A stretch of 64,000 bases of DNA. Origin: an uncultured Clostridia bacterium (GTDB taxonomy: Bacteria > Bacillota > Clostridia > Christensenellales > UBA1242). Positions 4,418 through 64,000 of this stretch are shown in pieces. The stretch spans positions 204 through 64,203 of the forward strand of contig CAKNRR010000002.1 in the NCBI GenBank assembly GCA_930990975.1. The letters run 5' to 3'. The notes beneath the pieces are model-generated. The model was not told where the DNA came from and ran no database searches. It saw only the letters and a list, made by a program, of their open reading frames with translations. A program made the translations under genes and the position numbers. Each line of letters opens with the position of its first letter. Within the stretch, counting starts at the first letter, position 1.

Positions 4418-4427
4418 GGAGAGATGA

Positions 4428-4877: not shown

Positions 4878-5592
4878 TAATGAGCTTATATTGCTTTTAG
4901 TCAAAAAAGCTCAAAGTGGAGATCAAGAAGCTAAGACAAAATTGATAGAAGAGAATTCGCCATTGATAAAAAGTATTTTGAAGCGATTTAAAGATAAGGG
5001 GGTAGAATATGAAGACTTATACCAAATTGGTTGTATAGGTTTTCTTAAAGCTATCAAGAATTTTGATCCAAGCTTTAATGTCAAATTCTCAACTTATGTA
5101 GTGCCTATGGTAATAGGCGAGATAAAGCGTTTCATGAGAGATGATGGTTCAATAAAGGTTTCAAGGGCGCTTAAGTCGTTAAATTTGCAAATAAACAAAT
5201 ATATAGAAAATGTTTTGTCAAAACAGCAATCAAAGCCCACAATAGAAGAGCTGGCTAAACATTTCAATGTAGAGGAACAAGAGATTGTTATGGCGATGGA
5301 TTCGGCTAAAATGCCTGTTTCAATTTATGCAAAGATAGAAGACGATAGTGATTCAGCAAGCATTATAGATAGAATTGAATCTGAAGAAGATTATAATGAA
5401 AAGATGGTTGATAATATAGCATTGCGAGAAGTTGTAAAAAAGCTTGATGAGAGGGATAGAAAAATAATTTTGCTAAGATATTATTTTGACCGTACTCAAA
5501 GTGAGATTGCAAAAGAATTGAAAATATCACAAGTGCAGGTTTCTAGGTTAGAGAGCAAAATACTTGATAATTTAAAATCTAAGTTGTTATAA
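4870..5592 (+). CDS. sigF: Sporulation sigma factor SigF
   Basis: Sigma-70 regions 2-4: YEDLYQIGCIGFLKAIKNFD, FSTYVVPMVIGEIKRFMRDD, HTH TQSEIAKELKISQVQVSRLE. ATG 4870 overlaps the spoIIAB stop. Track start 4789 is an in-frame upstream extension. Confidence 0.85.
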   Translation: MLDNELILLLVKKAQSGDQEAKTKLIEENSPLIKSILKRFKDKGVEYEDLYQIGCIGFLKAIKNFDPSFNVKFSTYVVPMVIGEIKRFMRDDGSIKVSRALKSLNLQINKYIENVLSKQQSKPTIEELAKHFNVEEQEIVMAMDSAKMPVSIYAKIEDDSDSASIIDRIESEEDYNEKMVDNIALREVVKKLDERDRKIILLRYYFDRTQSEIAKELKISQVQVSRLESKILDNLKSKLL

Positions 5593-7488: not shown

Positions 7489-7947
7489 ATGGATAATTAT
7501 ATGGACACTAAGAAAAGAAATGAGGCTTATAACCGCTATGTAAAGGCAAAAATACCTCAAACCAAGCCATGGCCAAGCTTATTTAATTCATTTTTGGTTG
7601 GTGGTATAATTTGTTGTATAGGACAAGGAATCAATGATTTGATTTTGCTATGGTTTCCTAATATGGCAGAGCAAAGTGCGTGGGCTTATACGCTCATAGC
7701 ATTAATTTTTATAGCTTCATTTTTGACTGGAATAGGGGTATATGACAAAATAGGTAAATTTGCAGGTGGAGGGTCAATAGTGCCTATTACGGGATTTTCA
7801 AATTCTATAACTTCTCCGGCTATTGAGTTCAAACATGAAGGAATTATTTATGGCATTTGTGTCAAGATGTTTACTATTGCTGGTCCAGTTATTGTGAGTG
7901 GCGTTGTGGCGAGTTTTATAGTTGGTGTTATATACTTATTTATTTAA
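7489..7947 (+). CDS. spoVAC: Stage V sporulation protein AC
   Basis: N-terminus KRNEAYNRYVKAKIPQTKPWPSLFNSFLVGGIICCIGQG plus the multi-TM layout typical of SpoVAC. Lies directly upstream of spoVAD. Confidence 0.85.
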   Translation: MDNYMDTKKRNEAYNRYVKAKIPQTKPWPSLFNSFLVGGIICCIGQGINDLILLWFPNMAEQSAWAYTLIALIFIASFLTGIGVYDKIGKFAGGGSIVPITGFSNSITSPAIEFKHEGIIYGICVKMFTIAGPVIVSGVVASFIVGVIYLFI

Positions 7948-8008
7948 GTTGTTTTTTAAAATGAAGTGCATGCAAAGATAAGGAATAAAGGATTCATATT
8001 TCTAAGGG

Positions 8009-9106
8009 GTGAAAATGTATACAAATCAGACGGTTATTTTTAAACATAAACCTGTTATAATTGGGAGCTTTTCTATTGTTGGACCAAAAGAAGGGAAAGG
8101 TAATTTTGGTCCTTATTTTAATTATGTTATGAAAGATGACTGCTTTGGAGAAAAGAGTTATGAAAAGGCTGAAATGAAGATGCTGAAAACGGCAATTGTA
8201 GGAGCTATTGAAGATGCGAAGATAAAAGCAAGTGATGTTAATTTGTTGCTTGCTGGTGATTTGTTAAATCAAATAATATCCTCGTCTTATGCTGCAAGAG
8301 ATTTTGATTTTGCTTTTTTGGGACTTTTTGGAGCGTGCTCAACTATGGCTGAAAGTATGGCTATTGGGGCGTCGCTGATTGATGGACATGAGTTTGATAC
8401 CGTGGTTTGTTCGACTGGTTCTCATTTCTCAACAGCTGAAAGACAATTCCGTTTTCCTCTAGAGTTAGGCAATCAAAGACCTCCTACATCTCAATGGACA
8501 GTAACAGGGGCTGGAGCATGTGTTTTGTCAAATAAAGGGGTTGGACCGCGAATAACGATGGCGACATTCGGAAAGGTTATTGATTATGGTATCATGGATG
8601 TGAATGATATGGGGGCAGCAATGGCTCCGGCAGCAATGAACACGATGCTTGCTCATTTTAGAGATACAAAAACAACTCCTGACGACTATGATTTGATAGT
8701 GACTGGCGACTTAGGAAAACTTGGTAGTGAAATATTAATAGATTTGATGGAGGACCAAGGGATAAAACTTGGCTTAAATTATAATGATTGTGGGCAAATG
8801 TATTTTACTAGAAACCAAAATACATTGTCAGGAGGAAGTGGATGTGGGTGTAGTGCTACGGTTTTGAATTCGTATATAATAAAGAAGTTGAGGACTGGCG
8901 AGTATAAAAGAGTTTTGTTTATGCCTACAGGGGCTTTAATGTCAACAACTGCAACACAACAAGGGGAAACAATACCTGGAGTATGCCATGCTATTGTATT
9001 GGAATGTGATGAAAGTGTTAAGGATAAAAAAGTAAAAGATGTTACATTGAGTAGGTCTAAAAATAAAAAGATTCTTGAAACGGTTGAAGAAAATAGCCAG
9101 AAATAA
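8009..9106 (+). CDS. spoVAD: Stage V sporulation protein AD (thiolase-like fold), with a Lys-rich C-terminal tail
   Basis: GDLLNQIISSSYAARDF...FLGLFGACSTMAES and GGSGCGCSA motifs characteristic of SpoVAD. The extra tail is ECDESVKDKKVKDV... Confidence 0.85.
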   Translation: MKMYTNQTVIFKHKPVIIGSFSIVGPKEGKGNFGPYFNYVMKDDCFGEKSYEKAEMKMLKTAIVGAIEDAKIKASDVNLLLAGDLLNQIISSSYAARDFDFAFLGLFGACSTMAESMAIGASLIDGHEFDTVVCSTGSHFSTAERQFRFPLELGNQRPPTSQWTVTGAGACVLSNKGVGPRITMATFGKVIDYGIMDVNDMGAAMAPAAMNTMLAHFRDTKTTPDDYDLIVTGDLGKLGSEILIDLMEDQGIKLGLNYNDCGQMYFTRNQNTLSGGSGCGCSATVLNSYIIKKLRTGEYKRVLFMPTGALMSTTATQQGETIPGVCHAIVLECDESVKDKKVKDVTLSRSKNKKILETVEENSQK

Positions 9107-9487
9107 AAACAATTTTCCATATTGGGAGAAACTTGGTAAGTGATATTTGAATAGAATTTTTTGGCTTGAATTTGTTAAAAATGCTCAAAATCTTTATTCA
9201 TATCCTTATTTATAAACAAAACTTAAATAAAAGAAAAACGACAAATACAGTTTGATTCTTACCATTAATCAAACTTGATAATTAAAGGAAAGGATGGAAA
9301 AATGTTTGTTCGACATAAAATTTATGTAGTGGTAACCTATAAAAAGAGATGGGTAGTAAACTGTGAAAAGAAGTGAGCGTGATTATTGGGAATAGAACTT
9401 GTTGTGAAGGTTGATTCATTAAGAATTTGAAAAAAAATGTGAATGCGAAAAGTTTATTTTTATATAAGATAAAATGAAGGAGTGGTT

Positions 9488-9844
9488 ATGTATTATCTTT
9501 GGGTGTTTTTGATAGGTGGATTTGTTTGTATGCTAGGACAGGTGCTAATAATATATACAAATATAACATCAGCTAGAATATTGGTTACATTTGTTATAAT
9601 CGGTGTTTTGTTGCAGGCGTTTGGAATTTTTGATCCAATATCAGAATTTGCTAGGGCGGGAATAAATGTTCCAATAATAGGGTTTGGTGCATCTTTGGCT
9701 AAGGGTGCGATTTCAGGGGCTCAATCAAAGGGGCTTTTGGGAGCTTTTACTGGTGGGCTTGAAGCAACAGCGGGTGGTATTGCGGCTGCGATATTGTTTG
9801 CTTTCATATTTAGTTTGATTTTTAAATCTAAAACAAAAAGCTAA
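9488..9844 (+). CDS. spoVAE: Stage V sporulation protein AE (SpoVAEB-type)
   Basis: Small multi-TM protein: YLWVFLIGGFVCMLGQVLI, GINVPIIGFGASLAKGA. ATG 9488 sits 6 nt after AAGGAG. The track GTG at 9482 is also possible. Confidence 0.8.
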   Translation: MYYLWVFLIGGFVCMLGQVLIIYTNITSARILVTFVIIGVLLQAFGIFDPISEFARAGINVPIIGFGASLAKGAISGAQSKGLLGAFTGGLEATAGGIAAAILFAFIFSLIFKSKTKS

Positions 9845-9891
9845 TAAACACAATATAAGCTATTATGCTTATAAAACATAATACTAAATAA

Positions 9892-9926
9892 GCTATTATG
9901 CACTGCATAATAGTACTTTTATTTTT
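9892..9926 (+). terminator. AT-rich hairpin terminator after spoVAE (member of the TATTATGC palindrome family)
   Basis: CTATTATGC-act-GCATAATAG followed by tacTTTTATTTTTATTT. Confidence 0.55.
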
Positions 9927-10015
9927 ATTTGCAAAAATAAGTCAAAATTTGTCGATTATAGACATATATATATCTTGTGCAAGATTGTCAAGTTGTAAAA
10001 AAGAAAAAAAAGAAG

Positions 10016-10642
10016 ATGTCTAAGAAGGCAAAACGTAGATTATTTTTAGTAATTGTTTTAGCAATTATTATTTTGATTTGTGCCTATTATTTTAAAATTG
10101 TTTGTCCGATAGTCATCAGTTTAAGTGAAGAGAGAGTAAGATCAATTGCAACAAGTACTATAAGCAAGGTGGTTGGAGATGTTATGATGGATGAAAACTT
10201 AAAATATGAAGATTTGGTCCATATAACTTATCAAACAAACACAAATAAGGTAGAACTTATTGAAGTTGATACGGTTAAAGTTAATGTGATAATTAGAGAA
10301 ATCACGAAAAGAGTACAAGAGGATTTCAATACATTGGGAAAAGAGGGAATACAAATTTCCTTAGGAACATTTACTGGAATTCCTTTTTTGTTCGGCTTAG
10401 GCCCAGATATATCAATAAAATTGGTGCCAGTAGGCACAGTAAACACAGTAGTTGACTCTCAATTTAAGGAAGCAGGAATAAATCAAACTATTCATAAACT
10501 TTATTTCACGGTTTCATCAGTAATTGGAATGGTTCTTCCTGCAATGACGCAAAACTTTACAACAGAACTTGATGTTTTGTTATGTGAAAGTATTATTGTA
10601 GGCGAAATACCTGATGTATATTTAAAAGGAGGGCTTATTTAA
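10016..10642 (+). CDS. yunB: Sporulation protein YunB-like
   Basis: N-terminal TM, then LGTFTGIPFLFGLGPDISIKLVPVGTV and FKEAGINQTIHKLYFTV as in the YunB family. Start taken at ATG 10016 (MSKKAKRR). Confidence 0.65.
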   Translation: MSKKAKRRLFLVIVLAIIILICAYYFKIVCPIVISLSEERVRSIATSTISKVVGDVMMDENLKYEDLVHITYQTNTNKVELIEVDTVKVNVIIREITKRVQEDFNTLGKEGIQISLGTFTGIPFLFGLGPDISIKLVPVGTVNTVVDSQFKEAGINQTIHKLYFTVSSVIGMVLPAMTQNFTTELDVLLCESIIVGEIPDVYLKGGLI

Positions 10643-38492: not shown

Positions 38493-38504
38493 ATAAACTT
38501 AAAC

Positions 38505-38544
38505 AAAAACACTAGAGAATAAATTAGAACTCTAGTGTTTTTTA
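38505..38544 (+). terminator. Rho-independent terminator after clpX
   Basis: CACTAGAG-aataaattagaa-CTCTAGTG followed by a T run. Confidence 0.8.
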
Positions 38545-38590
38545 TAGCACAAATAAGAGTATAAGTTCATATATATTAGAGGAGGTTTTC

Positions 38591-38884
38591 ATGAGAAGAT
38601 TTTTCAACATAATGGATAATAATATGAATAGAAGCAATAATTTTATAACAGCACAAAATGCTCGTGAAGATATTATAGGCGAGTTAGAAGCGATTATTCA
38701 ATATGAGAATCATTTAGAACAAACATCAGATATGAGTGCCAAAAATACAATAAGAGATATTTTAAAGGAAGAAAAATTGCATGTAGGGCAGTTGTTTGGC
38801 TTGTTGTTTCAATTAGATCCAGAAAGCAAGACTCAATTTGAAAATGGCTTAAAGGAATTTCAAAACAATAATAATGTGAATTAA
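38591..38884 (+). CDS. EncFtn-like (encapsulated-ferritin family) two-helix ferritin-like protein, orphan
   Basis: GELEAIIQYENHL...DILKEEKLHVGQLFGLLFQLDP follows the EncFtn pattern E-x-x-E-A-(V/I)-x-x-Y ... E-E-K-x-H ... L-x-x-L-D. Strong RBS AGAGGAGG. Confidence 0.5.
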   Translation: MRRFFNIMDNNMNRSNNFITAQNAREDIIGELEAIIQYENHLEQTSDMSAKNTIRDILKEEKLHVGQLFGLLFQLDPESKTQFENGLKEFQNNNNVN

Positions 38885-38990
38885 TATTGAAAAATAAATA
38901 TGACGGTAGAATATTACTTGTCATATTTTTTGATTATAATAGAAATAGGAAAATTAAAGTCATAAAATATAAATAAATTCTTCAAAATAC

Positions 38991-39019
38991 TTGACATTTA
39001 TATCATAAATTTATATAAT
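38991..39019 (+). promoter_or_regulatory. Consensus sigma-A promoter for the tRNA gene
   Basis: TTGACA, 17 nt, TATAAT, ~20 nt before the tRNA 5-prime end. Confidence 0.65.
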
Positions 39020-39041
39020 AACAAAGTAACATAAAAAAGAT

Positions 39042-39123
39042 GCGGGCGTGGCGGAATGGCAGACGCGCTTGTTTAAGGGGCAAGTGGGAAACCGTGTGGG
39101 TTCGACTCCCACCGCCCGCACCA
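39042..39123 (+). tRNA. tRNA-Leu, anticodon read as AAG (A34), CCA encoded
   Basis: Acceptor GCGGGCG/CGCCCGC, D arm GCG-GAATGGCAGA-CGC, anticodon arm CTTGT-TTAAGGG-GCAAG, 11-nt variable arm with GAAA loop, T arm GTGGG-TTCGACT-CCCAC, ACCA. 82 nt. The G36-G37 context is typical of CUN-reading Leu tRNAs. Confidence 0.85.
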
Positions 39124-39159
39124 AAAAGCGGAAACAATAGTTTGTTTTCGCTTTTTTTT
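39124..39159 (+). terminator. Rho-independent terminator after tRNA-Leu
   Basis: GCGGAAACA-atagtt-TGTTTTCGC followed by T8. Confidence 0.8.
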
Positions 39160-39434
39160 GTTGAATATAAAGATATTAAAGTTTTAGACATTATTTTGAG
39201 ACAAATAAATATTGGTTAATTATTTTTTTCAAACTTTGTTGATATGTAAACGCAAATTGATTTAATAGGAGGGTAAATGATAGTGAATAACAGGTCGCAG
39301 GAGTCCAAAAATATAGTGTTATTTTTTAAGATTATGAAAGAAATTTGCCTATTAAAACATGATGAAATCAAGATGTTTTTGAGCTTAGTTATTATTATGA
39401 AAAATAATAAAATAAAGTATATAATATAGCTTAA

Positions 39435-39490
39435 ATCATTTGCAAAATTTTATCAAAAGTGCTATTTTTAAAGAGTATTTTGCAAATGAT
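39435..39490 (+). promoter_or_regulatory. 14-bp perfect inverted repeat bracketing a putative promoter just upstream of the GLUG-like lipoprotein gene
   Basis: ATCATTTGCAAAAT (39435-39448) and ATTTTGCAAATGAT (39477-39490), 28-nt spacer. TTGCAA, 17 nt, TATTTT lies inside. The RBS GGAG is ~7 nt after the right arm. Confidence 0.4.
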
Positions 39491-39507
39491 GAAACAAGGA
39501 GAGTCTT

Positions 39508-40524
39508 ATGGCACTAAAGAAAAAGCTAAGCATAGCAATGCTTATAGTATTGACAATTTTGATAGGTATGTTTTTGATGGCTTGTGATGATAAATCAAGT
39601 CAAGATAATACTCAAGATGAAGAAAATAATGAAAAACCTGTTGACCCAGGAGATAATGGAGATGAAAACAACAAACCACAAAAAGTAGCTATTGAAATTT
39701 CATCTTTTGACGATTTGCTTAGTATGGCTGACAAGTTTGATAGCATTAAAGACAATGAATATTTCTTGTTGACAACTGATATTGATTGTGATGGGCAAAG
39801 CTGGGAATCAGTAGGCAGTCTTAACAATCCTTATAGCTGTGAATTTGATGGTAATGGCTATACAATAAGTAACTTGGTTTTAGCAACAGAAGATTCAAAG
39901 GCAAGCTTTTGGGGAGTTGCTAAAGATTCATATATTCACGATGTAACTTTTTCAAACATAACTACATCTGCAGAAGATTATAGTGAAGAAGGTTTAAATG
40001 TTGGGCTTATAGCACAAGGATATAACGAACTTCAACTTGAGAACATAACATTGACAAGTTCACTTATAACAATCAATGCAAACAATCTAAAGAATTTTGG
40101 TGGAATAATAGCAGAAGACCATTCCACAGGCTTAAGAAAGAATTTGACAGTAAAAGATAGCTCATTCAATATTTCAACAATGGCAGGTTCTAATAATATA
40201 GGTTTAATTACAGGATATAGCACAAATCTAGTAATAGAAGATTGTAAAATAGAAAATATAACTGGTTCAGTATTATATATGGGAAGTGAAGGTTTATCAT
40301 TCGGCTTAATCTCTGGAAGACTTGAAGCAAATGAAACAGACTTATCCCAAGCAAGTATAACAAACTGCGTATATAACATAATAAATATTGAAATATTAAG
40401 TATGACAGAAGAAAATATAAATGTGGGCACAAACATTGGTTATGTTGATGAAAATGCTGTAGTAGAAACAGAAAACATATCTTCAACTGAAACCCAAATT
40501 TTATTCAATGGAAGTGCAATTTAA
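39508..40524 (+). CDS. Lipoprotein with GLUG-like / beta-helix repeat domain, paralogous to the C-domain of the 1062..3806 protein
   Basis: Lipobox IGMFLMAC-DD. FDGNGYTISNL, VGLIAQG, FGGIIAED, IGLITGY, FGLISGR parallel [33 protein letters not shown] in the larger protein. Confidence 0.6.
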   Translation: MALKKKLSIAMLIVLTILIGMFLMACDDKSSQDNTQDEENNEKPVDPGDNGDENNKPQKVAIEISSFDDLLSMADKFDSIKDNEYFLLTTDIDCDGQSWESVGSLNNPYSCEFDGNGYTISNLVLATEDSKASFWGVAKDSYIHDVTFSNITTSAEDYSEEGLNVGLIAQGYNELQLENITLTSSLITINANNLKNFGGIIAEDHSTGLRKNLTVKDSSFNISTMAGSNNIGLITGYSTNLVIEDCKIENITGSVLYMGSEGLSFGLISGRLEANETDLSQASITNCVYNIINIEILSMTEENINVGTNIGYVDENAVVETENISSTETQILFNGSAI

Positions 40525-40627: not shown

Positions 40628-41497
40628 CTAAAATAGCTTTGTTAAACAGTCTTTAAAATCATTTGGAAATGGTATTTCAAAAGATAATACATTATCGAGA
40701 TATGGATGAAAAAATGACACATTTTTGCATATAAGGGCAGTATGTTTTATTAGGGTGGAAAGACTTCCGTAAATATTATCGCCTAATAATGGGCGGTTTA
40801 TTGATGAAAGATGCAATCTTATTTGGTGTGTACGGCCATGAACAAGCTCAAGCTTTATAAGACTATAATACTTATTAAATTTTATAGGATAAACATAGGT
40901 TGTGGCAGGCTTACCATCTTCAGCAATAACTCTTTGAAGGTCATTTCTTCCGTTCTCATTTATTGTCTTGATATTTTTATCAATTATTGTTTGAGAGCTT
41001 ATACAGCCTTCACAAATTGCATAATATTGTTTTTTGATTTCTTTTAAGTCTTTTTGAGCAATACTATCTTTGGCGACAATTATAATGCCAGCAGTGTCTT
41101 TGTCGAGTCTGTTTATTATTCTTAAAGTAAAATCAGGATCTTTAGTGTCCATATAATGACAAATAGCTCCAGCAAGATTATAATTATAATGAGAACGGCT
41201 TGGCATACATGGAAGTCCTGCGGGTTTGTTGATTAGCAGATAATACTCATCCTCATATACAATATCAAGTGGTATTATGCATTGCATAATACTGCTTTTA
41301 GGGCTGGGGTCACTGTTGACTTCTAAAATATCACCAGCTTTAAGGCTTGCATTGATGTTGGTTGGCTTGTCATTTATCTTAATGTATCCAAAAACTTTTC
41401 TTAAATTTGTTATATAATTTTCAGCAAATTGATTATCTTTTAAATAGTGGTAAATGCTTTTATAGTTTTTTGTTATATTGTATTTTCTGGTCTTCAT
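40628..41497 (-). CDS. RluA-family pseudouridine synthase
   Basis: Catalytic motif NRLDKDTAGIIIVAKD, plus HGRTHQIRLHL. Confidence 0.8.
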   Translation of the reverse strand: MKTRKYNITKNYKSIYHYLKDNQFAENYITNLRKVFGYIKINDKPTNINASLKAGDILEVNSDPSPKSSIMQCIIPLDIVYEDEYYLLINKPAGLPCMPSRSHYNYNLAGAICHYMDTKDPDFTLRIINRLDKDTAGIIIVAKDSIAQKDLKEIKKQYYAICEGCISSQTIIDKNIKTINENGRNDLQRVIAEDGKPATTYVYPIKFNKYYSLIKLELVHGRTHQIRLHLSSINRPLLGDNIYGSLSTLIKHTALICKNVSFFHPYLDNVLSFEIPFPNDFKDCLTKLF

Positions 41498-41678: not shown

Positions 41679-41694
41679 CTAAAACATAATAAAA

Positions 41695-41953
41695 GCTATG
41701 ATGAAAGAGTAGTAATAGAATTGATTTATCAAAGAGAGTTTGTCCTTGGCTGAAAGACAGATATAATAGATTTTATGAATTCACTTTCTAGCTACATTTA
41801 TGAAGTTTTGCATTGTTGTAATAAAGTGTAAAATGCGTAGTTTATGTCGTTATGCCTGCGTAAATGGTTTTAATAAGGATTGATAAAATCAATTAAAGTT
41901 AGGTGGTACCACGAAAAGTATTCTTTCGTCCTAATAGGAAGAATACTTTTTTT
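41695..41953 (+). promoter_or_regulatory. T-box riboswitch leader, Phe specifier (UUC)
   Basis: GA/K-turn ATGATGAAAGAGTAG. Stem I AGAGAG...TGGCTGAAAG. Specifier gaaTTCA (~41780). T-box AAAGTTAGGTGGTACCACG. Terminator AGTATTCTT...AAGAATACTTTTTTT. Confidence 0.8.
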
Positions 41954-43208: not shown

Positions 43209-45608
43209 ATGAAAGTAACATATAAATGGATAAAAGATTTTGTAGATGTTAATGCAACTCCAGAAGATATTGCAAATAGATTGACAGATGCTGGAATGGA
43301 AGTTGAAGAAATCATATATCAAAATGAACATTTGCATGATGTTGTCGTTGGTAAGATTTTGAAAATAGAAAAACATCCACAGGCTGATAAATTGGTGGTT
43401 TGCCAAGTTGATATTGGGAAAGAAATAACTCAAATTATAACGGCAGCAACGAATGTTTTTGAAGGAGCTGTTGTTCCTGTAAGTTTGCCTGGGGCAGATT
43501 TGGTTAATGGCATAAAAATCCAAAAAGCCAAAATGCGTGGAGTTGAATCTTGTGGTATGTTTTGCTCAGGAGAAGAGCTTGGTATAGATGAAAATTATTA
43601 TGAAGGAGCTGGAGTCAACGGAATTCTTATCCTTCCAAACGATTTAAAAATTGGACAAGCTATCGACAAAGCATTGATGCTTGATGATGTGGTTTTTGAT
43701 ATAAATATAACACCTAATAGAGCCGATTGCATGAGTATTATTGGTATAGCTAGGGAAGTGTGTGCATTATATGGTCTTGAAATGAAGAAAGTTAACTTCA
43801 GTTATGACATAGATGTATACGCAAAAGACACAGTTAGAGATTATGTTAATGTTGAAGTTAACACGCCTAATTGCTTAAGATATATGGCTGCAGCTATAAC
43901 AAACTTAAAAATTGAAAGATCTCCATTATGGATGAGGGCAAAATTGAATGCCGTAGGAATCAAGCCAATCAATACTATGGTAGATATTACAAATTATGTT
44001 TTGATTGAAATGGGACAGCCACTTCATGCTTTTGACCAAGAATTGATTGGTGGTAGAAAAATTAATGTTCGTCAAGCCAAAATAGGAGAGGAAATAGAGG
44101 TATTAAATCATAATACTTATAAGCTTGATGAAAGTGTGATGGTTATCGCTGACCAAGAAAAACCAATGGTTATAGCAGGAGTTATTGGAGGAACAAACTC
44201 TTGTATTAATGACAATACAAAAACTTGTGTTTTAGAAGGAGCTGTTTTTGACTTAAAATCTATAAGAATAACAAGCAGAAAAATAGGAGTTCGTACAGAT
44301 TCATCTGCAAGATACGCAAAGGGAGTCAATGTCGCAAATGCAGAACTTGGTATAGTAAGAGCACTACATTTTGTATCTAAAATCGGTTGTGGTAAGGTTG
44401 TAAGGGGAATGATTGATATTTCTTCTGTCAAAAATGAAGAGAGGAAGATTGAGGTGTCTGTTGATTTGATTAATGATATTCTTGGCTTGCAGATAGATAG
44501 TAAGATTATGGTTAAATTATTGAATAATCTTGGAATTAAAACTGTATGCTATGGAAAGAAGCTTCAATGTATAATACCTCCTTATAGAGAAGATCTTGAA
44601 AATGATTATGACATAGCTGAAGAGGTTATAAGATTGTATGGCTATAGTGTCTATGATAATATGCAATATGATCTCTTTAAGAATGCCAAAGTTACCGAAG
44701 GAGAACATCATCCTAGACTTCTTATGGAAAGAAAGTTTAGAAACGCATTGGTAGAAAGAGGTTTTTATGAAAATGTTTCTTACACTTTAGTTCCAGAAGA
44801 GTCTCCTAAAAAATTGTTGTTGGATGATATTAGAGCAAATATAATAAAAATTGCAAACCCAATAAGCGAAGATATTGCTTGCATGAGAACTTCTTTGGCC
44901 CATTCATTATTTTCTAACATAGCTTATAATATAAGTGTTGGAAACAGAACAATGAAGATTTTTGAATGTGGAAGAGTTTATTTGACTGAAGAATTGCCTT
45001 TAGTAAAGCTTCCAAATGAAATAAATATGTTAGGCTTGGCTGTCTGTGATGAAGGATACGATTTTTATATTTTGAAAGGTGTTGTAGAATCGCTTTTAAG
45101 CAAAACCTCTGCTACTTATAAATTGGAAAGATCAAAACAACCATTCTTGCATCCTGGAATATCTGCTGACATTATAATCGGAGATAAAGTGATAGGAAGC
45201 TTTGGGAAAATTCATCCACAAGTTGCTAAGAATTATGACATTCCAAACAATGTGTTCTACGCAGAACTTAATGATGATTTCTTGATTGAGTTGGAGCCTG
45301 TTAAACGAGTATTTAAAAATATTTCTAAATATCCTATTGTAGAAAGAGATTTGGCCGTTGTGGTGGATGAGAAGGTTACAGCTGAAGAAATGTTGTCAGC
45401 AATCAAATCTTCATGTGGTAATTTGTATTACAATGCAAGCTTATTTGATGTTTATAGAAGTGCTAGTGTTGGCGAGAATAAAAAGAGTTTGGCATTCAAA
45501 ATCAAGCTTGTAGATATGAATAAAACTTTGACAGATGAAGAAGTTAATAAAGTGATGCAAAAGATATTAAAGTCATTTAATTATAGATTTGGAGCTGTTT
45601 TAAGATGA
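43209..45608 (+). CDS. pheT: Phenylalanine--tRNA ligase beta subunit
   Basis: tRNA-binding domain (VVGKILKIEKHPQADKLVVCQVD), then B3/4, B5 and FDX-ACB order. ~800 aa. Confidence 0.95.
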   Translation: MKVTYKWIKDFVDVNATPEDIANRLTDAGMEVEEIIYQNEHLHDVVVGKILKIEKHPQADKLVVCQVDIGKEITQIITAATNVFEGAVVPVSLPGADLVNGIKIQKAKMRGVESCGMFCSGEELGIDENYYEGAGVNGILILPNDLKIGQAIDKALMLDDVVFDINITPNRADCMSIIGIAREVCALYGLEMKKVNFSYDIDVYAKDTVRDYVNVEVNTPNCLRYMAAAITNLKIERSPLWMRAKLNAVGIKPINTMVDITNYVLIEMGQPLHAFDQELIGGRKINVRQAKIGEEIEVLNHNTYKLDESVMVIADQEKPMVIAGVIGGTNSCINDNTKTCVLEGAVFDLKSIRITSRKIGVRTDSSARYAKGVNVANAELGIVRALHFVSKIGCGKVVRGMIDISSVKNEERKIEVSVDLINDILGLQIDSKIMVKLLNNLGIKTVCYGKKLQCIIPPYREDLENDYDIAEEVIRLYGYSVYDNMQYDLFKNAKVTEGEHHPRLLMERKFRNALVERGFYENVSYTLVPEESPKKLLLDDIRANIIKIANPISEDIACMRTSLAHSLFSNIAYNISVGNRTMKIFECGRVYLTEELPLVKLPNEINMLGLAVCDEGYDFYILKGVVESLLSKTSATYKLERSKQPFLHPGISADIIIGDKVIGSFGKIHPQVAKNYDIPNNVFYAELNDDFLIELEPVKRVFKNISKYPIVERDLAVVVDEKVTAEEMLSAIKSSCGNLYYNASLFDVYRSASVGENKKSLAFKIKLVDMNKTLTDEEVNKVMQKILKSFNYRFGAVLR

Positions 45609-46723
45609 TTTATTTGGATAATGCAGCTACAACTCAAATGTTTGAAGGAGGGGTAGACATATATAAAAAATATGCCTGCCAATCTTTTTTTAACCCTTCA
45701 GCTGGTTATGCGCAGTCTATTGAAATAGCAAAAGAGTTAAATGTTGCAAGAGATAAGATTTTGAATAAATTAGGTTCGTCAAAAGGAAATATAATTTTCA
45801 CAGGAGGTGCAACTGAAAGCAATAATCTTGCAATTATGGGAAGCAAAAGAAATGGTAAATGGGAATATGTCTTTTCAGTCGGCGAGCATCCAAGTGTTTA
45901 TAATGTTGCAAGGGAACTAGAAAGTCAAGGACATATAGTGCACTTTGTAGGTTTACAAGAAAATGGACAAATTGATTATAATCAACTTGAAAAAGTTTTA
46001 AATTCAAAAACTAGATTAATTTCAGTTATGCATTCATCCAATGAAACTGGAGCTATTAATGATTTGCGACTTGTTGATAAAATAAGAAAAGACAAAAGTC
46101 CGCAAGCATTGTTGCATGTCGATGGTGTTCAAGCATTTTGTAAATTGGAATATAGAATAGATGATTATAATATAGATTTATATACCATTTCAGCACATAA
46201 GTTTCATGGACCAAAAGGTGTTGGGGCTTTATATGTAAGGAATTGTGCTTCATTAAAAAATATTGTTTTTGGTGGAGGACAAGAAAATGGGTATAGATCA
46301 GGGACTGAAAATGTGCCTGGTATTATGTCTATGGTTTACGCTATAGAAAATATAGATGTTAAACAAAATTATAGGCGTGTGAAAGAGCTTAACAAAAAAC
46401 TTAAAGAGATATTTTCAAAAGATGAAAATATAAGCTATGTGAATGGAAATAACCCTTATGTAATAAGTTTTGGTTTTGCTGGAGTGAACGGCGAAACATT
46501 GATGAGAGCTTTAGAAAATGAGGGTATAATAGTAGGGACAGGAAGTGCTTGTTCTGCTAAGAAAGCTGGAAATAGAATTTTGGAAAATTGTGGATTATCT
46601 AAAGATAAAGTGAAAACTCATATAAGAATTTCTTTTGATTTTAATCAAACGATTGACCAAATAGAAGAGGCTGGAGAAATAATTTTAAAAACATATCATA
46701 ATTTGCTGGAGAAAGTTAAATGA
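45605..46723 (+). CDS. Cysteine desulfurase (NifS/IscS/NifZ-like), partner of ThiI
   Basis: IYLDNAATT and SAHKFHGPKGVGALYVR. ATGA overlap with pheT and overlap with thiI. Confidence 0.75.
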   Translation: MIYLDNAATTQMFEGGVDIYKKYACQSFFNPSAGYAQSIEIAKELNVARDKILNKLGSSKGNIIFTGGATESNNLAIMGSKRNGKWEYVFSVGEHPSVYNVARELESQGHIVHFVGLQENGQIDYNQLEKVLNSKTRLISVMHSSNETGAINDLRLVDKIRKDKSPQALLHVDGVQAFCKLEYRIDDYNIDLYTISAHKFHGPKGVGALYVRNCASLKNIVFGGGQENGYRSGTENVPGIMSMVYAIENIDVKQNYRRVKELNKKLKEIFSKDENISYVNGNNPYVISFGFAGVNGETLMRALENEGIIVGTGSACSAKKAGNRILENCGLSKDKVKTHIRISFDFNQTIDQIEEAGEIILKTYHNLLEKVK

Positions 46724-47880
46724 GAGTTATATTATTGAGATTTGGAGAGTTGTACTTAAAGGGGCATAATAGAAATATATTTGAAAACACTTTGATTGAC
46801 AACATAAGAACTATGCTTAAGGGAGAAGATTTTAAATTTGAAAAAACTTTTGGTAGGTATGTAATATCTAATTTTAGCCAAGATGCAGAAAGTCGAATAG
46901 TTTTGAAATTGCAAAAGGTTTTTGGTCTTTATAGTTTAAGTATAGCAACTGAAGTTGACGCAAAGGAGCAAGATATATTGGAAGAAGTGCTAAAAATTGA
47001 TTGCCGAAATAACACTTTTAAAGTGTTTGTAAAAAGGGCGGACAAGGCATTTCCGATAAGCTCTATGGATTTTGCTAAGAAATTGGGAGAAGAGGTTCTT
47101 AATAAAAATGAAGGTTCTTCTGTAGATTTGTATAATCCTAATAAAACTATTTATGTCGATATAAGATTAAATAAGAAGGCTTATATCTTTAGTGATATAA
47201 TCAAATGTCAAGGAGGATTGCCTTTAGGAAGCTCAGGTAAAGGGTTGTTGCTTCTTTCTGGAGGAATAGATAGTCCGGTTGCAGGGTATTTGATGGCTAA
47301 AAGAGGAATGAAGCTTGAAGCTTTGCATTTTTATAGTTATCCATATACTTCCTTGCTTGCTAAGGAAAAGGTTATCACTTTGGCAAGAAAATTGTGTGAG
47401 TATGTGGGAGAAATCAAACTTCACATTGTGTCATTTACGACTGTGCAAGAGGAAATACATAAACATTGCCGTGAAGAGTATATGATTACAATAATGAGAA
47501 GAATTATGATGAGGGTTGCTGAAAAGATTTGTGATAAGAATGACTTGGGAGCAATCTTAACTGGGGAGAGCTTGGGACAGGTTGCAAGTCAAACTATGCA
47601 GAGTATGACATCAACAGAAAATGTCTTGGAAAAGAAGCCTGTCTTTAGACCATGTATTGCTATGGACAAAGAAGACATAATGGCAGTGGCAAAAAATATA
47701 GATACTTACGAAACTTCAATTTTGCCTTATGAAGATTGCTGTACTGTGTTCTTGCCAAAGAATCCTATTATTAAACCTATTTTAGAAAAGGTTGAGCATG
47801 AGGAAAGCTTCTTGGATATAGACAAGCTTGTAGAGGGGTGTCTGGGAAGCGAGGAGATAATGCGAATAACTTTAAATTAA
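46720..47880 (+). CDS. thiI: tRNA 4-thiouridine synthase ThiI
   Basis: RFGELYLKGHNRNIFE (THUMP region). PP-loop LLLSGGIDSPVA. Confidence 0.85.
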   Translation: MRVILLRFGELYLKGHNRNIFENTLIDNIRTMLKGEDFKFEKTFGRYVISNFSQDAESRIVLKLQKVFGLYSLSIATEVDAKEQDILEEVLKIDCRNNTFKVFVKRADKAFPISSMDFAKKLGEEVLNKNEGSSVDLYNPNKTIYVDIRLNKKAYIFSDIIKCQGGLPLGSSGKGLLLLSGGIDSPVAGYLMAKRGMKLEALHFYSYPYTSLLAKEKVITLARKLCEYVGEIKLHIVSFTTVQEEIHKHCREEYMITIMRRIMMRVAEKICDKNDLGAILTGESLGQVASQTMQSMTSTENVLEKKPVFRPCIAMDKEDIMAVAKNIDTYETSILPYEDCCTVFLPKNPIIKPILEKVEHEESFLDIDKLVEGCLGSEEIMRITLN

Positions 47881-52000: not shown

Positions 52001-53035
52001 TTATTGATTTATTTTTACTTTATCTGCTACATCTTTTCTCATATCTTCACTTATAGCTGCATAATGCTTCTTTGTTGTGTTGACATCTTTATGTCCTAAA
52101 ACATCTGCAACAATATAGATATCATGGGTTTCTTTATAAAGATTTGTGCCAAATGTGCTTCTTAGTTTATGTGGAGATATTTTTTTTAAAGGTGTTGCAA
52201 TTTGAGCGAATTTTTTAACAAGATTTTCAACCGCGCGTATAGATATTCTTTTGTTTTGCAAAGATATAAACATTGCATTTTCGTCTTCAGGAAGATTTAA
52301 AGTAGCCCTTTTTTCTAACCATGTTTTGAGTGCAAGAGCGACTTCTTTAGAAAAATAAAGTGTTGTCTGGTTTCCGCCTTTTCTAGTGACCAAAAAGGCA
52401 TTTTGTGAGAAATCAAAACTTTCAATATTTAATCCGACAAGCTCTGATATACGAATCCCAGTTCCTAAAAATAAAGTAATGATGGCATTATCTCTTTCAA
52501 AAGTGTTTTTGTTGTATTGTTGTTGGTGCTTAGAAAACTCGCAAGGATTTTCAACGGCGTTCATCATTCTGCTGACCTCGTTATTTTCAAGTCTTATGAT
52601 TTCTTTATTGTGTAATTTAGGAGTGTCTATTTTGCTGACTACATTTGATTCTATCATATCATGATTAAATAAGTACTTGAAGAAACTTCTTAAAGATGCA
52701 AGTTTTCTTGCTTTCCCTCGTTCATCATTCTTATATTGTTTGTCGTCTAATTGATAGAAAGACAAATATGACAAATATTGTTCTATGTTTCTTGCTTTGA
52801 GGGTGTTTAAGTCATTTAATGTTATTTCTATTTCTTTTTTATGAAAAACGAATTGTGATAAGTAATTATAGAAAATAAACAGGTCCATTGAGTAGTTGTA
52901 TCTCGTAAGTGATGAAGTGTTGCTTTCTATACCAATAAAAAAGTCAAGACAGTAGTCGGGGAGTCTTTCAGTGTATTTAGACATTTTTAATCTGTTTTGT
53001 AAATCTCGTTTTTCGTAAAAACTTATCTTTTTCAT
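52001..53035 (-). CDS. Tyrosine recombinase, XerS-like architecture
   Basis: Catalytic region GTGIRISEL, VTRKGG, HKLRSTFGTNLY, LGHKDVNTTKKHY (R-H-R-Y). The N-terminal LPDYCLDFF...SSLTRYNYSMDLFIFYNYL resembles the XerS N-domain pattern. Confidence 0.75.
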   Translation of the reverse strand: MKKISFYEKRDLQNRLKMSKYTERLPDYCLDFFIGIESNTSSLTRYNYSMDLFIFYNYLSQFVFHKKEIEITLNDLNTLKARNIEQYLSYLSFYQLDDKQYKNDERGKARKLASLRSFFKYLFNHDMIESNVVSKIDTPKLHNKEIIRLENNEVSRMMNAVENPCEFSKHQQQYNKNTFERDNAIITLFLGTGIRISELVGLNIESFDFSQNAFLVTRKGGNQTTLYFSKEVALALKTWLEKRATLNLPEDENAMFISLQNKRISIRAVENLVKKFAQIATPLKKISPHKLRSTFGTNLYKETHDIYIVADVLGHKDVNTTKKHYAAISEDMRKDVADKVKINQ

Positions 53036-53286: not shown

Positions 53287-53306
53287 TAACATACGAGGTG
53301 TTAATT

Positions 53307-54599
53307 ATGATAGATATTAATTTGATTAGAACTAATCCTGAACTAGTAAAGGAAAATATTAAAAAGAAATTTCAAGATCATAAACTTGAATATGTTGATA
53401 AAGTGCTTTCACTGGACGAACAATTAAGAGCTCTTAAAAAAGAAGGCGATGAACTACGATCAAAAAGAAATAGTCTGAGCAGTCAAATTGGCTTATTAAT
53501 GAGAGAAAAAAAGATTGATGAAGCTAATAAAATAAAAGCTGAAGTTGTTCAAAACAATAAGAGAATTGAAGAAGTTGAAAATGAAGAGACTGAAATTGCT
53601 GCTCAATTAAAAAAATATATGATGTCTATTCCTAATATTATAGCTGATGATGTGCCTATTGGAAAAGATGATAGCCAAAATGTTCAAAGATTAACTGTTG
53701 GAGAAGCTAAAGTCCCAAATTATGCAATTCCTTATCATGCTGACATTTTAGAAAGCTTGAATGGCTTAGATTTGGATAGTGCTAGAAGAACAAGCGGAAA
53801 TGGCTTTTATTATTTAACTGGAGATATAGCAAGATTGCATTCAGCTATATTGTCTTATGCTAGAGATTATATGATAAACCAAGGTTTTACTTATTGTATA
53901 CCACCATTTATGATTAGAAGCGATGTTGTAAATGGCGTTATGAGTTTTGAAGAAATGGAAAACATGATGTATAAAATTGAAGGCGAAGACCTTTATCTTA
54001 TAGGAACTAGCGAACATTCAATGATAGGCAGATTTAAAGATACAATATTGAAGGAAGAAAATTTGCCTTTATTACTAACTTCTTATTCTCCATGTTTTAG
54101 AAAGGAAGTTGGTGCACATGGTATTGAAGAAAGAGGAATTTATAGAGTACATCAATTTGAAAAGCAAGAAATGATTGTGATTTGCAAGCCAGAAGATTCA
54201 ATGGATTGGTATAATAAGATGTGGCAAATCTCTTCAAACTTCTTTGCTTCATTAGATATTCCTCATGAAGTTATGGAATGTTGCAGTGGCGATTTAGCTG
54301 ATTTAAAAGTAAAATCTTGTGATATAAATGCTTGGAGTCCACGACAAAAAAGATATTTTGGAGAGCTTGGTTCTTGCTCTAATTTAAGTGATGCTCAAGC
54401 TAGACGCTTAGGAATAAAGTTTAAAACTGAAGACGGAATGAAATTTGCTCATACATTAAACAATACTGTTGTAGCGCCTCCTAGAATGCTTATCGCATTT
54501 TTAGAAAACAATTTAAATGAAGATGGAAGTGTTAATATACCAGTTGCATTAAGACCTTATATGGGCGGAAAAGATAAGATATATCCTGCAAAAAAATAA
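53307..54599 (+). CDS. serS: Serine--tRNA ligase
   Basis: MIDINLIRTNPE N-terminal coiled-coil arm. Class II motifs FRKEVGAHG and HTLNNTVVAPPR. Start at ATG 53307. Confidence 0.9.
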   Translation: MIDINLIRTNPELVKENIKKKFQDHKLEYVDKVLSLDEQLRALKKEGDELRSKRNSLSSQIGLLMREKKIDEANKIKAEVVQNNKRIEEVENEETEIAAQLKKYMMSIPNIIADDVPIGKDDSQNVQRLTVGEAKVPNYAIPYHADILESLNGLDLDSARRTSGNGFYYLTGDIARLHSAILSYARDYMINQGFTYCIPPFMIRSDVVNGVMSFEEMENMMYKIEGEDLYLIGTSEHSMIGRFKDTILKEENLPLLLTSYSPCFRKEVGAHGIEERGIYRVHQFEKQEMIVICKPEDSMDWYNKMWQISSNFFASLDIPHEVMECCSGDLADLKVKSCDINAWSPRQKRYFGELGSCSNLSDAQARRLGIKFKTEDGMKFAHTLNNTVVAPPRMLIAFLENNLNEDGSVNIPVALRPYMGGKDKIYPAKK

Positions 54600-61848: not shown

Positions 61849-62991
<1,143 letters not shown>

Positions 62992-63075
62992 TTATACTAT
63001 TCTTTTATAATTTTTTAATTCACATAATTACTATATTTAGTATTATGTATGACATATTATTTAAAATATATTGTA

Positions 63076-64000
63076 TTATTCTATAAACATAGCATCACCA
63101 AAAGAAAAGAATCTATACTTTTCTTTTACTGCTTCATGATAGATATTCATAGTTTCGTCATACCCTGCAAATGCAGAAACCAGCATAATAAGAGTACTTT
63201 CTGGTAAGTGAAAATTTGTTATAAGAGCATCTACGACTTTGAATTTATAAGATGGATAAATAAAAATATCTGTTTCTCTTTTTTGTGGTATAATTTGACC
63301 ATTGTCATCTGCACAACTTTCTAATACTCTAACAGATGTAGTGCCTACCGCAATTATTCTTCTATGTTCACTTTTAGCTTTATTAAGTTTAGAAGCATTT
63401 TCTTCAGTCATCTCAATATATTCACTATGCATTTCATGAGCGAGTATATTGTCTTCTTTGACTGGTCGGAAAGTGCCCAATCCAACATGTAATAAAACCT
63501 CAATAATTTGTACACCCTTCTCTTTTATCTTTTCTAGCAATTCTTTAGTGAAATGTAATCCTGCTGTTGGTGCAGCTGAAGAACCTTCCACTTTTGAATA
63601 TATGGTTTGATATCTATTTTTATCTTTCAATTTTTCATGAATATATGGAGGCAATGGCATTTGTCCTACTTCCTCTAGTCGTTCTTCGAACACTCCTTCA
63701 AAATTAAATTTTATAATACAGCTGCCATAATCTTTCTTTTCAATTATTTTACCAGACAATAACTTGCTAAATACTATTTCAGTTCCTACTTTAAGGCGCT
63801 TAAAAGGTTTTGCTATGATCTCCCATGTTGTTAAGTCTATTCGTTTTTGAAGTAATACTTCTATTTTTGCACCCGTATCTTTATAGCCAAATAATCTTGC
63901 AGGTAAAACTTTGGTATTGTTGATTACTAATACATCCCCCTTTTTTAAATAATCTACAATATCTCGAAAAATTTTATGATTGATTGTTTTATCTTCTCTG
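63076..64000 (-). CDS. queA: S-adenosylmethionine:tRNA ribosyltransferase-isomerase QueA (5-prime end cut by the window edge)
   Basis: C-terminal part [36 protein letters not shown]. The reading frame stays open upstream of the track ATG to position 64000 (...[18 protein letters not shown]). Confidence 0.9.

What the first reader, a model, noticed from the sequence alone, without database searches (positions are those of the whole stretch)
39042..39123. tRNA-Leu with an A at wobble position 34 (anticodon AAG)
- The cloverleaf folds cleanly. The 7-nt anticodon loop between CTTGT and GCAAG reads T-T-A-A-G-G-G, which gives A34-A35-G36 with G37.
- The G36-G37 context is typical of CUN-reading Leu tRNAs that normally have GAG, UAG or CAG.
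- In bacteria A34 is normally restricted to tRNA-Arg(ACG), which TadA edits to inosine.
- From my recollection of the literature, A34 Leu tRNAs have been noted only in a minority of Firmicutes. They imply an expanded TadA specificity (I34 reading CUU/CUC/CUA).
- CTT is visibly a favoured Leu codon in the genes of this window.
- The gene has a perfect TTGACA-17-TATAAT promoter and a strong terminator, so it looks highly expressed.
Basis: partly seen in the sequence, partly recalled or inferred. Interest (0 to 1): 0.55.

Follow-up and report, generated by a model that had tools for sequence, protein, structure and literature searches.

The report
Leucine tRNA with A34 anticodon AAG
This is a real, strongly promoted leucine tRNA gene whose anticodon starts with A (AAG); that rarity was known only from lactic acid bacteria, but here it is conserved across at least 110 uncultured gut Clostridia species.

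Summary
- ARAGORN and Rfam both call a tRNA-Leu(AAG) at 39042-39123 (+).
- It has a 12/12 TTGACA-17-TATAAT promoter and a 15-bp terminator.
- CTT makes up 70% of the CTN leucine codons in the window.

The gene is neither a one-off mutation nor an error.
- The same anticodon arm was searched in 185,579 species genomes with position 34 left free. It gave 121 A, 1 G and 1 non-tRNA hit.
- The A34 hits come from about 110 low-GC MAGs, labelled uncultured Clostridia, Christensenella or Catabacter.
- Across these genes, 12 of 23 stem pairs show compensatory changes.
- 84 of 102 loci have a near-consensus promoter.
- About a third of the loci share the window's gene order (tig-clpP-clpX ... pheST).

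The most likely mechanism follows Streptococcus and Oenococcus: TadA deaminates A34 to inosine and the tRNA reads CUU, CUC and CUA. I could not test this. No tadA gene was reachable.

One indirect sign of an active I34 system is that the CGG codon is absent in frame (0, against 133 occurrences off frame).

The published surveys I could read place tRNA-Leu(AAG) almost entirely in class Bacilli. This is therefore a new lineage of a known kind, and of moderate interest.

The parts
38991..39019 (+). Sigma-70-type promoter: -35 TTGACA (38991-38996), 17-nt spacer, -10 TATAAT (39014-39019). The -10 ends 22 nt before the mature 5' end.
   Evidence: scores it 12 of 12. A promoter scoring at least 10 of 12 lies within 70 nt upstream of the orthologous tRNA in 84 of 102 related loci, and 39 of those are perfect.
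39042..39123 (+). tRNA-Leu(AAG) gene, 82 nt. It is a type II tRNA with a 3-bp variable stem and GAAA loop, A73, and an encoded CCA (39121-39123).
   Evidence: ARAGORN and Rfam RF00005 at 50.7 bits. Across 29 distinct orthologues, 99.7% of cells are paired and 12 of 23 pairs show compensatory change. The gene is identical in six strains from separate metagenomes.
39075..39077 (+). Anticodon A34-A35-G36. G37 follows at 39078. The loop, positions 32-38, reads UUAAGGG.
   Evidence: Read directly. A34 is present in 121 of 121 clade tRNAs when position 34 is left free in the search.
39123..39159 (+). Intrinsic terminator: a 15-pair hairpin that starts at the CCA end, followed by a T run.
   Evidence: It is the only terminator-like site in 38500-39700. 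Shuffled sequence gives a mean of 0.3 sites.

Best explanation
**What it is.** This is the functional, separately transcribed and probably highly expressed CUY-reading leucine tRNA of an uncultured low-GC gut Clostridia species.

**How it arose (inferred).** In this lineage the usual tRNA-Leu(GAG) underwent a G34-to-A34 change that became fixed across a whole clade.

**What is shown.**
- The gene, its fold, its promoter and its terminator.
- Its conservation with compensatory changes in at least 110 species.
- CUU as the dominant CUN codon, and the top Leu codon in the relatives.

**What is inferred.**
- LeuRS charges the tRNA. Bacterial LeuRS does not read the anticodon, and A73 and the long variable arm are present.
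- TrmD methylates G37.
- The cell's TadA deaminase, otherwise dedicated to tRNA-Arg(ACG), converts A34 to inosine.
- The mature tRNA-Leu(IAG) then reads CUU, CUC and CUA. A separate tRNA (UAG and/or CAG) reads CUG and CUA.

**Why A34 would be favoured (inferred).** In a genome with CUU:CUC of about 11:1, an A/I34 decoder suits the codon demand better than G34.
For: **The gene is real and expressed-looking.**
- Gene and fold.
- Promoter and terminator.

**A34 is under selection.**
- With position 34 left free, 121 matches have A, 1 has G and 1 is not a tRNA.
- There are 35 distinct full-length A34 variants, with 12 of 23 stem pairs changed on both sides and 99.7% pairing.
- Promoters are conserved in 84 of 102 loci.
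- About 37 loci share the window's gene order. ClpX is 78-88% and Tig 63-79% identical at the protein level.
- The gene is identical in six strains.

**Codon usage fits.**
- CTT is 70% of CTN in the window and 69% in the pooled relatives. In the relatives CTT (5137) exceeds TTA (3874).
- CTT is the most used Leu codon in gap and rplT.
- CTC is no rarer than the C-ending codons of boxes served by G34 tRNAs.

**Indirect signs of an active TadA/I34 system.**
- CGG is absent in frame: 0 of 130 CGN codons, against 45 + 88 occurrences of the trinucleotide off frame.
- Yokobori et al. (PMC3711424) describe this pattern for genomes with TadA and a sole tRNA-Arg(ICG). They also report that CGG becomes more frequent again once TadA is lost.
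- A clade member (L040) carries tRNA-Arg(ACG). Its loop CUACGGA matches the Leu loop at positions 33, 34, 36 and 37 and differs at position 35.

**Precedent.** tRNA-Leu(AAG) is I34 in vivo in O. oeni, S. pyogenes and S. mutans, and streptococcal TadA edits it in vitro (PMC11472039; PMC13249217; PMC8072771).
Against: - No tadA gene was seen. It is not in the window, not within 10 kb of either end, and not in the 117 clade loci.
- No RNA-level evidence exists.
- E. coli TadA does not edit tRNA-Leu(AAG) (PMC11472039), so an adapted enzyme is needed and has not been shown here.
- The loop UUAAGGG has G38, whereas the streptococcal editing consensus YUAMGRA has A38. Position 32 also differs from the tRNA-Arg of L040.
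- O. oeni keeps unmodified A34 tRNAs (Thr, Ser) alongside an active TadA (PMC8072771). A34 plus TadA therefore does not guarantee I34.
- The absence of a tRNA-Leu(GAG) in the same genome could not be checked.
Confidence: 0.6

Rival explanations
1. The tRNA is functional and expressed, but A34 stays unmodified. It reads CUU by Watson-Crick pairing and may read other CUN codons weakly by A34 'superwobble'. This would resemble Mycoplasma capricolum tRNA-Thr(AGU) and the Thr and Ser A34 tRNAs of O. oeni.
For: - CUU alone accounts for 70% of CUN codons, so an A34 reader would already cover most of the demand.
- E. coli-type TadA does not accept tRNA-Leu(AAG) (PMC11472039).
- O. oeni has unmodified A34 tRNAs alongside TadA (PMC8072771).
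- A34 tRNAs in four-fold boxes were neutral or beneficial in E. coli (bioRxiv 10.64898/2026.05.15.725136).
- G38 departs from the streptococcal editing consensus.
Against: - Every bacterial tRNA-Leu(AAG) examined experimentally so far carries I34.
- CTC is not depleted relative to other C-ending codons.
- The total absence of CGG points to an active I34 system in this cell.
- The Leu loop differs from the relative's tRNA-Arg(ACG) at only one of the five splayed-out loop positions 33-37.
Confidence: 0.34
2. The gene is a non-functional pseudo-tRNA, or the A34 is a sequencing, assembly or strain-level mutation artefact of a normal tRNA-Leu(GAG).
For: Only the general rarity of non-ACG ANN anticodons in bacteria.
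Against: - A34 is present in 121 of 121 clade tRNAs from about 110 independent assemblies, and in six strains of this species.
- Covariation is strong.
- Consensus promoters are conserved.
- The cloverleaf, A73 and CCA are all intact.
Confidence: 0.02
3. The tRNA was brought in by a mobile element (phage, plasmid or island) and supplements a resident set, rather than replacing tRNA-Leu(GAG).
For: Some relatives carry a second, 5'-degenerate copy of the 3' part of the tRNA about 245 bp away, or about 5 kb away on one contig. That looks like an integration scar at this tRNA.
Against: - The gene sits in conserved housekeeping synteny (tig-clpP-clpX-small ORF-tRNA-...-rluD-like-T-box-pheST) in about 37 species.
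- No match was found in 2.9 million viral contigs.
- The best plasmid-collection matches are 80.5% identical or less.
- The scars indicate that elements use the tRNA as a target, not that they carry it.
Confidence: 0.02

Closest known systems
tRNA-Leu(AAG), matured to IAG, of Lactobacillales (Oenococcus oeni, Streptococcus pyogenes/mutans/pneumoniae, Lactobacillus, Lactococcus), edited by a TadA with relaxed specificity
   Same: - Same amino acid and same AAG anticodon with G37.
- Low-GC Firmicute host.
- CUU usage raised relative to UUA.
- Apparently takes the place of tRNA-Leu(GAG).
   Different: - The host class is Clostridia (uncultured gut MAGs), not Bacilli.
- The tRNA is shorter: 82 nt including CCA, against 89 nt reported for S. 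pyogenes.
- Position 38 is G, whereas the streptococcal consensus has A.
- I34 and the TadA adaptation are not demonstrated here.
- The origin is probably independent. Other Clostridia with the same anticodon arm keep GAG (Thermosyntropha, L080), as does a ~50% GC metagenome organism (L128/L129).
Bacterial tRNA-Arg(ACG), matured to ICG, the canonical TadA substrate
   Same: - A34 in a four-fold box with U33 and G36.
- In this clade (L040) it also has G37.
- It is the likely co-substrate of the same enzyme.
   Different: - C35 rather than A35.
- C32 and A38 rather than U32 and G38.
- It is a type I tRNA.
- It is nearly universal in bacteria, whereas Leu(AAG) is rare.
Eukaryotic cytosolic tRNA-Leu(IAG), made by ADAT2/ADAT3
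   Same: The same anticodon and the same decoding outcome (CUU, CUC, CUA).
   Different: It is made by a heterodimeric enzyme with lenient sequence specificity that acts on up to eight tRNAs. It has no evolutionary continuity with this gene.
Unmodified A34 tRNAs: Mycoplasma capricolum tRNA-Thr(AGU), O. oeni tRNA-Thr and tRNA-Ser
   Same: An ANN anticodon in a four-fold box of a low-GC Firmicute or Mollicute.
   Different: Those tRNAs are documented as unmodified. In Mycoplasma the tRNA serves a minimal set. Here a relative also has tRNA-Leu(CAG) (L052), so this tRNA is not the sole CUN decoder.

Membership tests
Bacterial type II tRNA-Leu (CUN-reading isoacceptor) | Cloverleaf with acceptor, D, anticodon and T stems that scores as a tRNA | tested here: met
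   ARAGORN. Rfam RF00005 at 50.7 bits against a gathering score of 29. 99.7% of cells paired across 29 orthologues.
Bacterial type II tRNA-Leu (CUN-reading isoacceptor) | Long variable arm, discriminator A73 and G18G19 in the D loop | tested here: met
   Read from the sequence. The variable stem 44-46/51-53 has a GAAA loop and two covarying pairs. A73 is followed by an encoded CCA.
Bacterial type II tRNA-Leu (CUN-reading isoacceptor) | Anticodon NAG, with U33 and with G37 following G36 | tested here: met
   The loop is UUAAGGG and is invariant in the clade. The anticodon arm other than position 34 was fixed by the search pattern.
Bacterial type II tRNA-Leu (CUN-reading isoacceptor) | Charged with leucine by LeuRS | not testable with these tools
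   Inferred from the identity elements only.
Bacterial I34 tRNA-Leu(AAG)/TadA system (Lactobacillales type) | A34 encoded in the gene and conserved in the lineage | tested here: met
   121 of 121 clade tRNAs have A when position 34 is left free.
Bacterial I34 tRNA-Leu(AAG)/TadA system (Lactobacillales type) | No tRNA-Leu(GAG) in the same genome (AAG replaces GAG) | tested here: inconclusive
   No Leu(GAG) was found in the window, in 20 kb of flanks, or in about 810 kb of clade DNA. One Leu(CAG) was found. Whole genomes were not available.
Bacterial I34 tRNA-Leu(AAG)/TadA system (Lactobacillales type) | A tadA gene is present | not testable with these tools
   None was found in the window, the flanks or the clade loci. 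The only signs are indirect: no in-frame CGG (interpreted with PMC3711424) and a tRNA-Arg(ACG) in relative L040.
Bacterial I34 tRNA-Leu(AAG)/TadA system (Lactobacillales type) | A34 read as G (inosine) in RNA | not testable with these tools
   A search of metagenome and metatranscriptome contigs for the G34 version found only a genuine tRNA-Leu(GAG) from a ~50% GC organism.
Bacterial I34 tRNA-Leu(AAG)/TadA system (Lactobacillales type) | Anticodon loop fits the S. pyogenes TadA consensus YUAMGRA (positions 32-38) | tested here: inconclusive
   UUAAGGG fits 6 of 7 positions, with G38 in place of A38 (against PMC11472039). The core UAMG is met.
Bacterial I34 tRNA-Leu(AAG)/TadA system (Lactobacillales type) | CUU (and CUC) usage raised at the expense of UUA | tested here: met
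   CTT is 70% of CTN. In the pooled relatives CTT (5137) exceeds TTA (3874). CUC itself stays low at 6-10% of CTN.
Bacterial I34 tRNA-Leu(AAG)/TadA system (Lactobacillales type) | Host belongs to Lactobacillales, class Bacilli (the published distribution) | tested here: not met
   Related loci are titled uncultured Clostridia, Christensenella, Catabacter or Ca. Caccopulliclostridium. The window also carries sporulation genes.
Unmodified-A34 four-way decoder (Mycoplasma tRNA-Thr(AGU) type) | Sole tRNA for its codon box | tested here: not met
   Clade member L052 has a tRNA-Leu(CAG) 3.5 kb from its tRNA-Leu(AAG).
Unmodified-A34 four-way decoder (Mycoplasma tRNA-Thr(AGU) type) | A34 demonstrably unmodified | not testable with these tools
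   Needs RNA data.

The most novel reading that the evidence does not exclude
A second, independent fixation of tRNA-Leu(AAG) occurred outside class Bacilli and spans a whole clade (at least 110 species) of uncultured gut Clostridia. It would be accompanied by a convergent widening of TadA specificity to A35 substrates, by CUU becoming the leading leucine codon, and by loss of the CGG codon. That would make a natural replicate for testing how an I34 expansion reshapes codon usage and how TadA and its tRNA substrates co-evolve.
Probability: 0.5. Interest if true: 0.55.

Novelty: new member of a known kind. Interest (0 to 1): 0.4.

Why it matters
Bacterial tRNAs with A34 other than Arg(ACG) are rare. 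The Leu(AAG)/I34 case in Lactobacillales has recently been linked to genome-wide leucine recoding and to more diverse TadA mRNA editing.

An independent occurrence in a species-rich gut Clostridia clade would offer three things.
- A replicate natural experiment on whether the anticodon change drives codon usage or the reverse.
- A second set of TadA enzymes in which to look for the residues that relax specificity at position 35. This is relevant to TadA-derived base editors.
- A correction to the current view, based on GtRNAdb genomes of cultured organisms, that the trait is almost confined to Bacilli.

Tried and rejected
**1. Looking for tadA.**
- A six-frame deaminase motif scan of the window found nothing.
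The only hit was L097, a chance non-tRNA pattern match in Neobacillus fumarioli.
- Walking 10 kb beyond each window end found no deaminase. One of these look-ups failed because the last ORF is cut by the window end.
- I ran no further search on TadA. Its hits carry no organism label and could not be tied to this clade.

**2. Looking for RNA-derived evidence of inosine.**
- I searched metagenome contigs for the G34 version of the clade's anticodon arm.
- There were two hits, both a true tRNA-Leu(GAG) next to a tRNA-Leu(CAG) in a ~50% GC organism.

**3. Mobile-element origin.**
- No match in viral contigs.
- Only matches of 80.5% identity or less, to ordinary Leu tRNAs, in the plasmid collection.

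**4. Naming the species.**
- The cluster look-up returned no names.
- No related locus is closer than about 78% nucleotide identity over the neighbouring genes.

**5. Pseudogene or artefact.** Rejected on conservation, covariation and promoter evidence.

**6. Literature.** I found no paper linking Christensenellales with anticodon or inosine terms. The primary O. oeni paper (Rafels-Ybern 2019) is not in the library and is cited only through papers that cite it.

Full report
**1. The observation**

The sequence at 39042-39123 (+) folds as a type II tRNA.
- ARAGORN reports one tRNA in the whole 64-kb window: tRNA-Leu, anticodon aag, at exactly these coordinates.
- Rfam's tRNA model scores 50.7 bits against a gathering score of 29, E = 6.5e-8.
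- Read directly, the anticodon stem is CTTGT/GCAAG and the seven-base loop is T-T-A-A-G-G-G. This puts A34 at 39075, A35 at 39076, G36 at 39077 and G37 at 39078.
- The discriminator is A73 and CCA is encoded.
- The variable arm is a 3-bp stem closed by a GAAA loop.

- TTGACA-17-TATAAT lies at 38991-39019. It is the only 12/12 site in the 1.2 kb scanned.
- A 15-pair hairpin with a T run lies at 39123-39156.

CTT is favoured.
- In 43 long ORFs the counts are CTT 379, CTC 33, CTA 95 and CTG 38.
- CTT is 70% of the CTN box. This is the highest T-ending share among the eight four-fold boxes, which otherwise range from 25% to 50%.

**2. The organism and the context**

- The window is about 31% G+C.
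- The tRNA lies between tig-clpP-clpX plus a conserved 97-aa ORF upstream, and a lipoprotein-like ORF, an RluD-like pseudouridine synthase and a T-box-controlled pheS-pheT downstream.
- Sporulation genes are present: spoIIAA/AB-sigF, spoVA and yunB.
- Exact copies of the window's ClpX occur in 101 index blocks of the public-assembly collection (24 contigs were read). In six strains from different metagenome assemblies the tRNA is 100% identical.

**3. A lineage trait rather than an accident**

I searched one genome for each of 185,579 species for the anticodon arm with position 34 left free (CGCTTGTTTNAGGGGCAAGT).
- Of 123 matches, 121 have A34.
- One has G34, a true tRNA-Leu(GAG) in Thermosyntropha lipolytica.
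- One is a chance non-tRNA match in Neobacillus.
- The A34 loci come from about 110 different assemblies. They are titled uncultured Clostridia, Christensenella sp., Catabacter or Ca. Caccopulliclostridium.
- The sources are human, rabbit, deer, buffalo, chicken and mouse guts. The 8-kb stretches range from 25% to 45% G+C.
- ARAGORN of them tRNA-Leu(aag).

The genes have diverged while keeping the fold.
- There are 35 distinct full-length A34 sequences.
- On the 29 ungapped sequences, 99.7% of cells form standard pairs. Twelve of 23 pairs show changes on both sides.
- The covariation score is 0.42 against 0.17 in shuffles, and at most 0.145 when partners are slid.
- The anticodon stem was fixed by the search pattern, so it says nothing either way.

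Other evidence of conservation:
- A promoter scoring at least 10 of 12 lies within 70 nt upstream in 84 of 102 loci, and 39 are perfect.
- About 37 loci share the window's gene order. Protein identities are ClpX 78-88%, Tig 63-79% and PheS 74-83%.
- The remaining loci carry the tRNA in other contexts, so the trait spans more than one synteny group.

This excludes a pseudogene, a strain mutation or an assembly error.

**4. How it most likely works**

Shown:
- a conserved, separately transcribed tRNA-Leu with A34;
- CUU as the dominant CUN codon. In the pooled relatives it is the most used Leu codon overall, CTT 5137 against TTA 3874;
- CUU as the top Leu codon in gap and rplT.

Inferred from established knowledge:
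- LeuRS ignores the anticodon, so the tRNA is charged with leucine.
- G37 after G36 is the TrmD (m1G37) context.

The open step is the state of A34.
- Every bacterial tRNA-Leu(AAG) examined experimentally carries I34. O. oeni is reported in PMC8072771 and PMC11472039. S. pyogenes is in PMC11472039. S. mutans and S. pneumoniae TadA are in PMC13249217.
- E. coli TadA cannot edit this tRNA, so an adapted enzyme is needed.
- O. oeni also keeps unmodified A34 Thr and Ser tRNAs.

I could not reach a tadA gene.
- None is in the window.
- None lies within 10 kb of either end.
- None is in the clade loci.

Two indirect observations favour an active I34 system.
- The CGG codon is absent in frame: 0 of 130 CGN codons in about 17,000 codons. 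The trinucleotide occurs 45 and 88 times in the two other frames, and CGC occurs 27 times in frame. Yokobori et al. report near-elimination of CGG for genomes with TadA and a single tRNA-Arg(ICG). They also report that CGG becomes more frequent again once TadA is lost and A34 stays unmodified (PMC3711424).
- A clade member (L040) encodes tRNA-Arg(ACG) with loop CUACGGA. Among the splayed-out loop positions 33-37, it differs from the Leu loop UUAAGGG only at position 35. That is the position the streptococcal enzyme has relaxed (consensus UAMG).

Two points argue for caution.
- G38, and U32, depart from the extended streptococcal consensus YUAMGRA.
- CTC is not depleted relative to C-ending codons of boxes that have a G34 tRNA. 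This fits I:C pairing, but another decoder could explain it equally well.

I put I34 at about 0.6 and unmodified A34 at about 0.34.

**5. Origin**

- Clostridia with the identical anticodon arm but G34 exist. One is Thermosyntropha (L080). The other is a ~50% GC metagenome organism whose Leu(GAG) sits next to Leu(CAG) (L128/L129).
- Katanski et al. report that Bacillales have GAG only.
- The simplest reading is a G34-to-A34 transition within low-GC Clostridia, independent of the one in Lactobacillales.
- I could not align the two lineages' tRNAs directly, so independence rests on taxonomy and on the GAG-bearing intermediates.

**6. Comparison with what is known**

- The kind is known. tRNA-Leu(AAG) is reported in Leuconostoc and Oenococcus, Lactobacillus, Lactococcus and Streptococcus, with scattered Mycoplasma and Prochlorococcus cases (PMC8007984; bioRxiv 10.64898/2026.05.15.725136; PMC13249217).
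- PMC13249217 states that almost all such genes in GtRNAdb fall in class Bacilli.
- No searchable paper connects Christensenellales with this trait.
- GtRNAdb-based surveys cover few or no uncultured MAGs, which may explain the gap.
- I therefore file this as a new member, meaning a new lineage, of a known kind. It is not a new mechanism.

**7. Verdict**

- It is less surprising than it looked from memory alone, because the I34 Leu system is now well documented.
- It is more than a routine tRNA, because it shows the trait fixed across a large, unstudied Clostridia clade, with matching shifts in codon usage.
- Interest: 0.4.

Noticed in passing
whole window (43 long ORFs): The arginine codon CGG is never used in frame (0 of 130 CGN codons in about 17,000 codons). 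The trinucleotide CGG occurs 45 + 88 times in the other two frames, and CGC is used 27 times. This suggests there is no tRNA-Arg(CCG) and that the CGN box is read only by I34. In the pooled relatives CGG is 3% of CGN, mostly from the higher-GC loci.
   Followed up: partly
window 41689-41936 (+): A T-box leader (Rfam RF00230, 93.9 bits against a gathering score of 93) lies upstream of pheS-pheT. The specifier region reads ...AUGAA-UUC-A..., which fits a Phe (UUC) specifier.
   Followed up: partly
L055 6331-6409; also L056, L063, L106 and L047 (related loci): A second copy of the tRNA's 3' portion (from about position 20 to CCA) lies about 245 bp downstream of the intact gene. Its 5' half is degenerate, and in L055 it has a different variable-arm variant. 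On contig CALWTG010000027 (L047/L059) the two copies are about 5 kb apart. This looks like scars of integrative elements that target this tRNA gene.
   Followed up: partly
window 38591-38884 (+): A 97-aa ORF with no Pfam hit lies directly upstream of the tRNA promoter. It is conserved next to the tRNA in 33 related loci, at 65-85% amino-acid identity among those with good coverage.
   Followed up: no
L126 8997-9761 (about 0.2-1.0 kb upstream of window position 1, opposite strand): A cluster of six tRNA genes (Tyr-GTA, Thr-TGT, Phe-GAA, Asp-GTC, Met-CAT, Pro-TGG) lies just outside the window. It contains no further Leu tRNA.
   Followed up: no
window 40628-41497 (-), 45605-47880 (+), 61849-64000 (-): Several tRNA-modification genes lie near the tRNA: an RluD-like pseudouridine synthase, a cysteine desulfurase plus ThiI (s4U8), and tgt-queA (queuosine). 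The last ORF, queA, runs off the window end.
   Followed up: no
window 4109-5592 and 7489-10642 (+): Sporulation genes are present (spoIIAA-spoIIAB-sigF-like operon, spoVAC/AD/AEB, yunB). The uncultured host is therefore probably an endospore former.
   Followed up: no
window 52001-53035 (-): A tyrosine recombinase (Phage_integrase family) gene lies beside serS (53298-54599). I did not check whether it is a Xer-type housekeeping enzyme or marks an integrated element.
   Followed up: no
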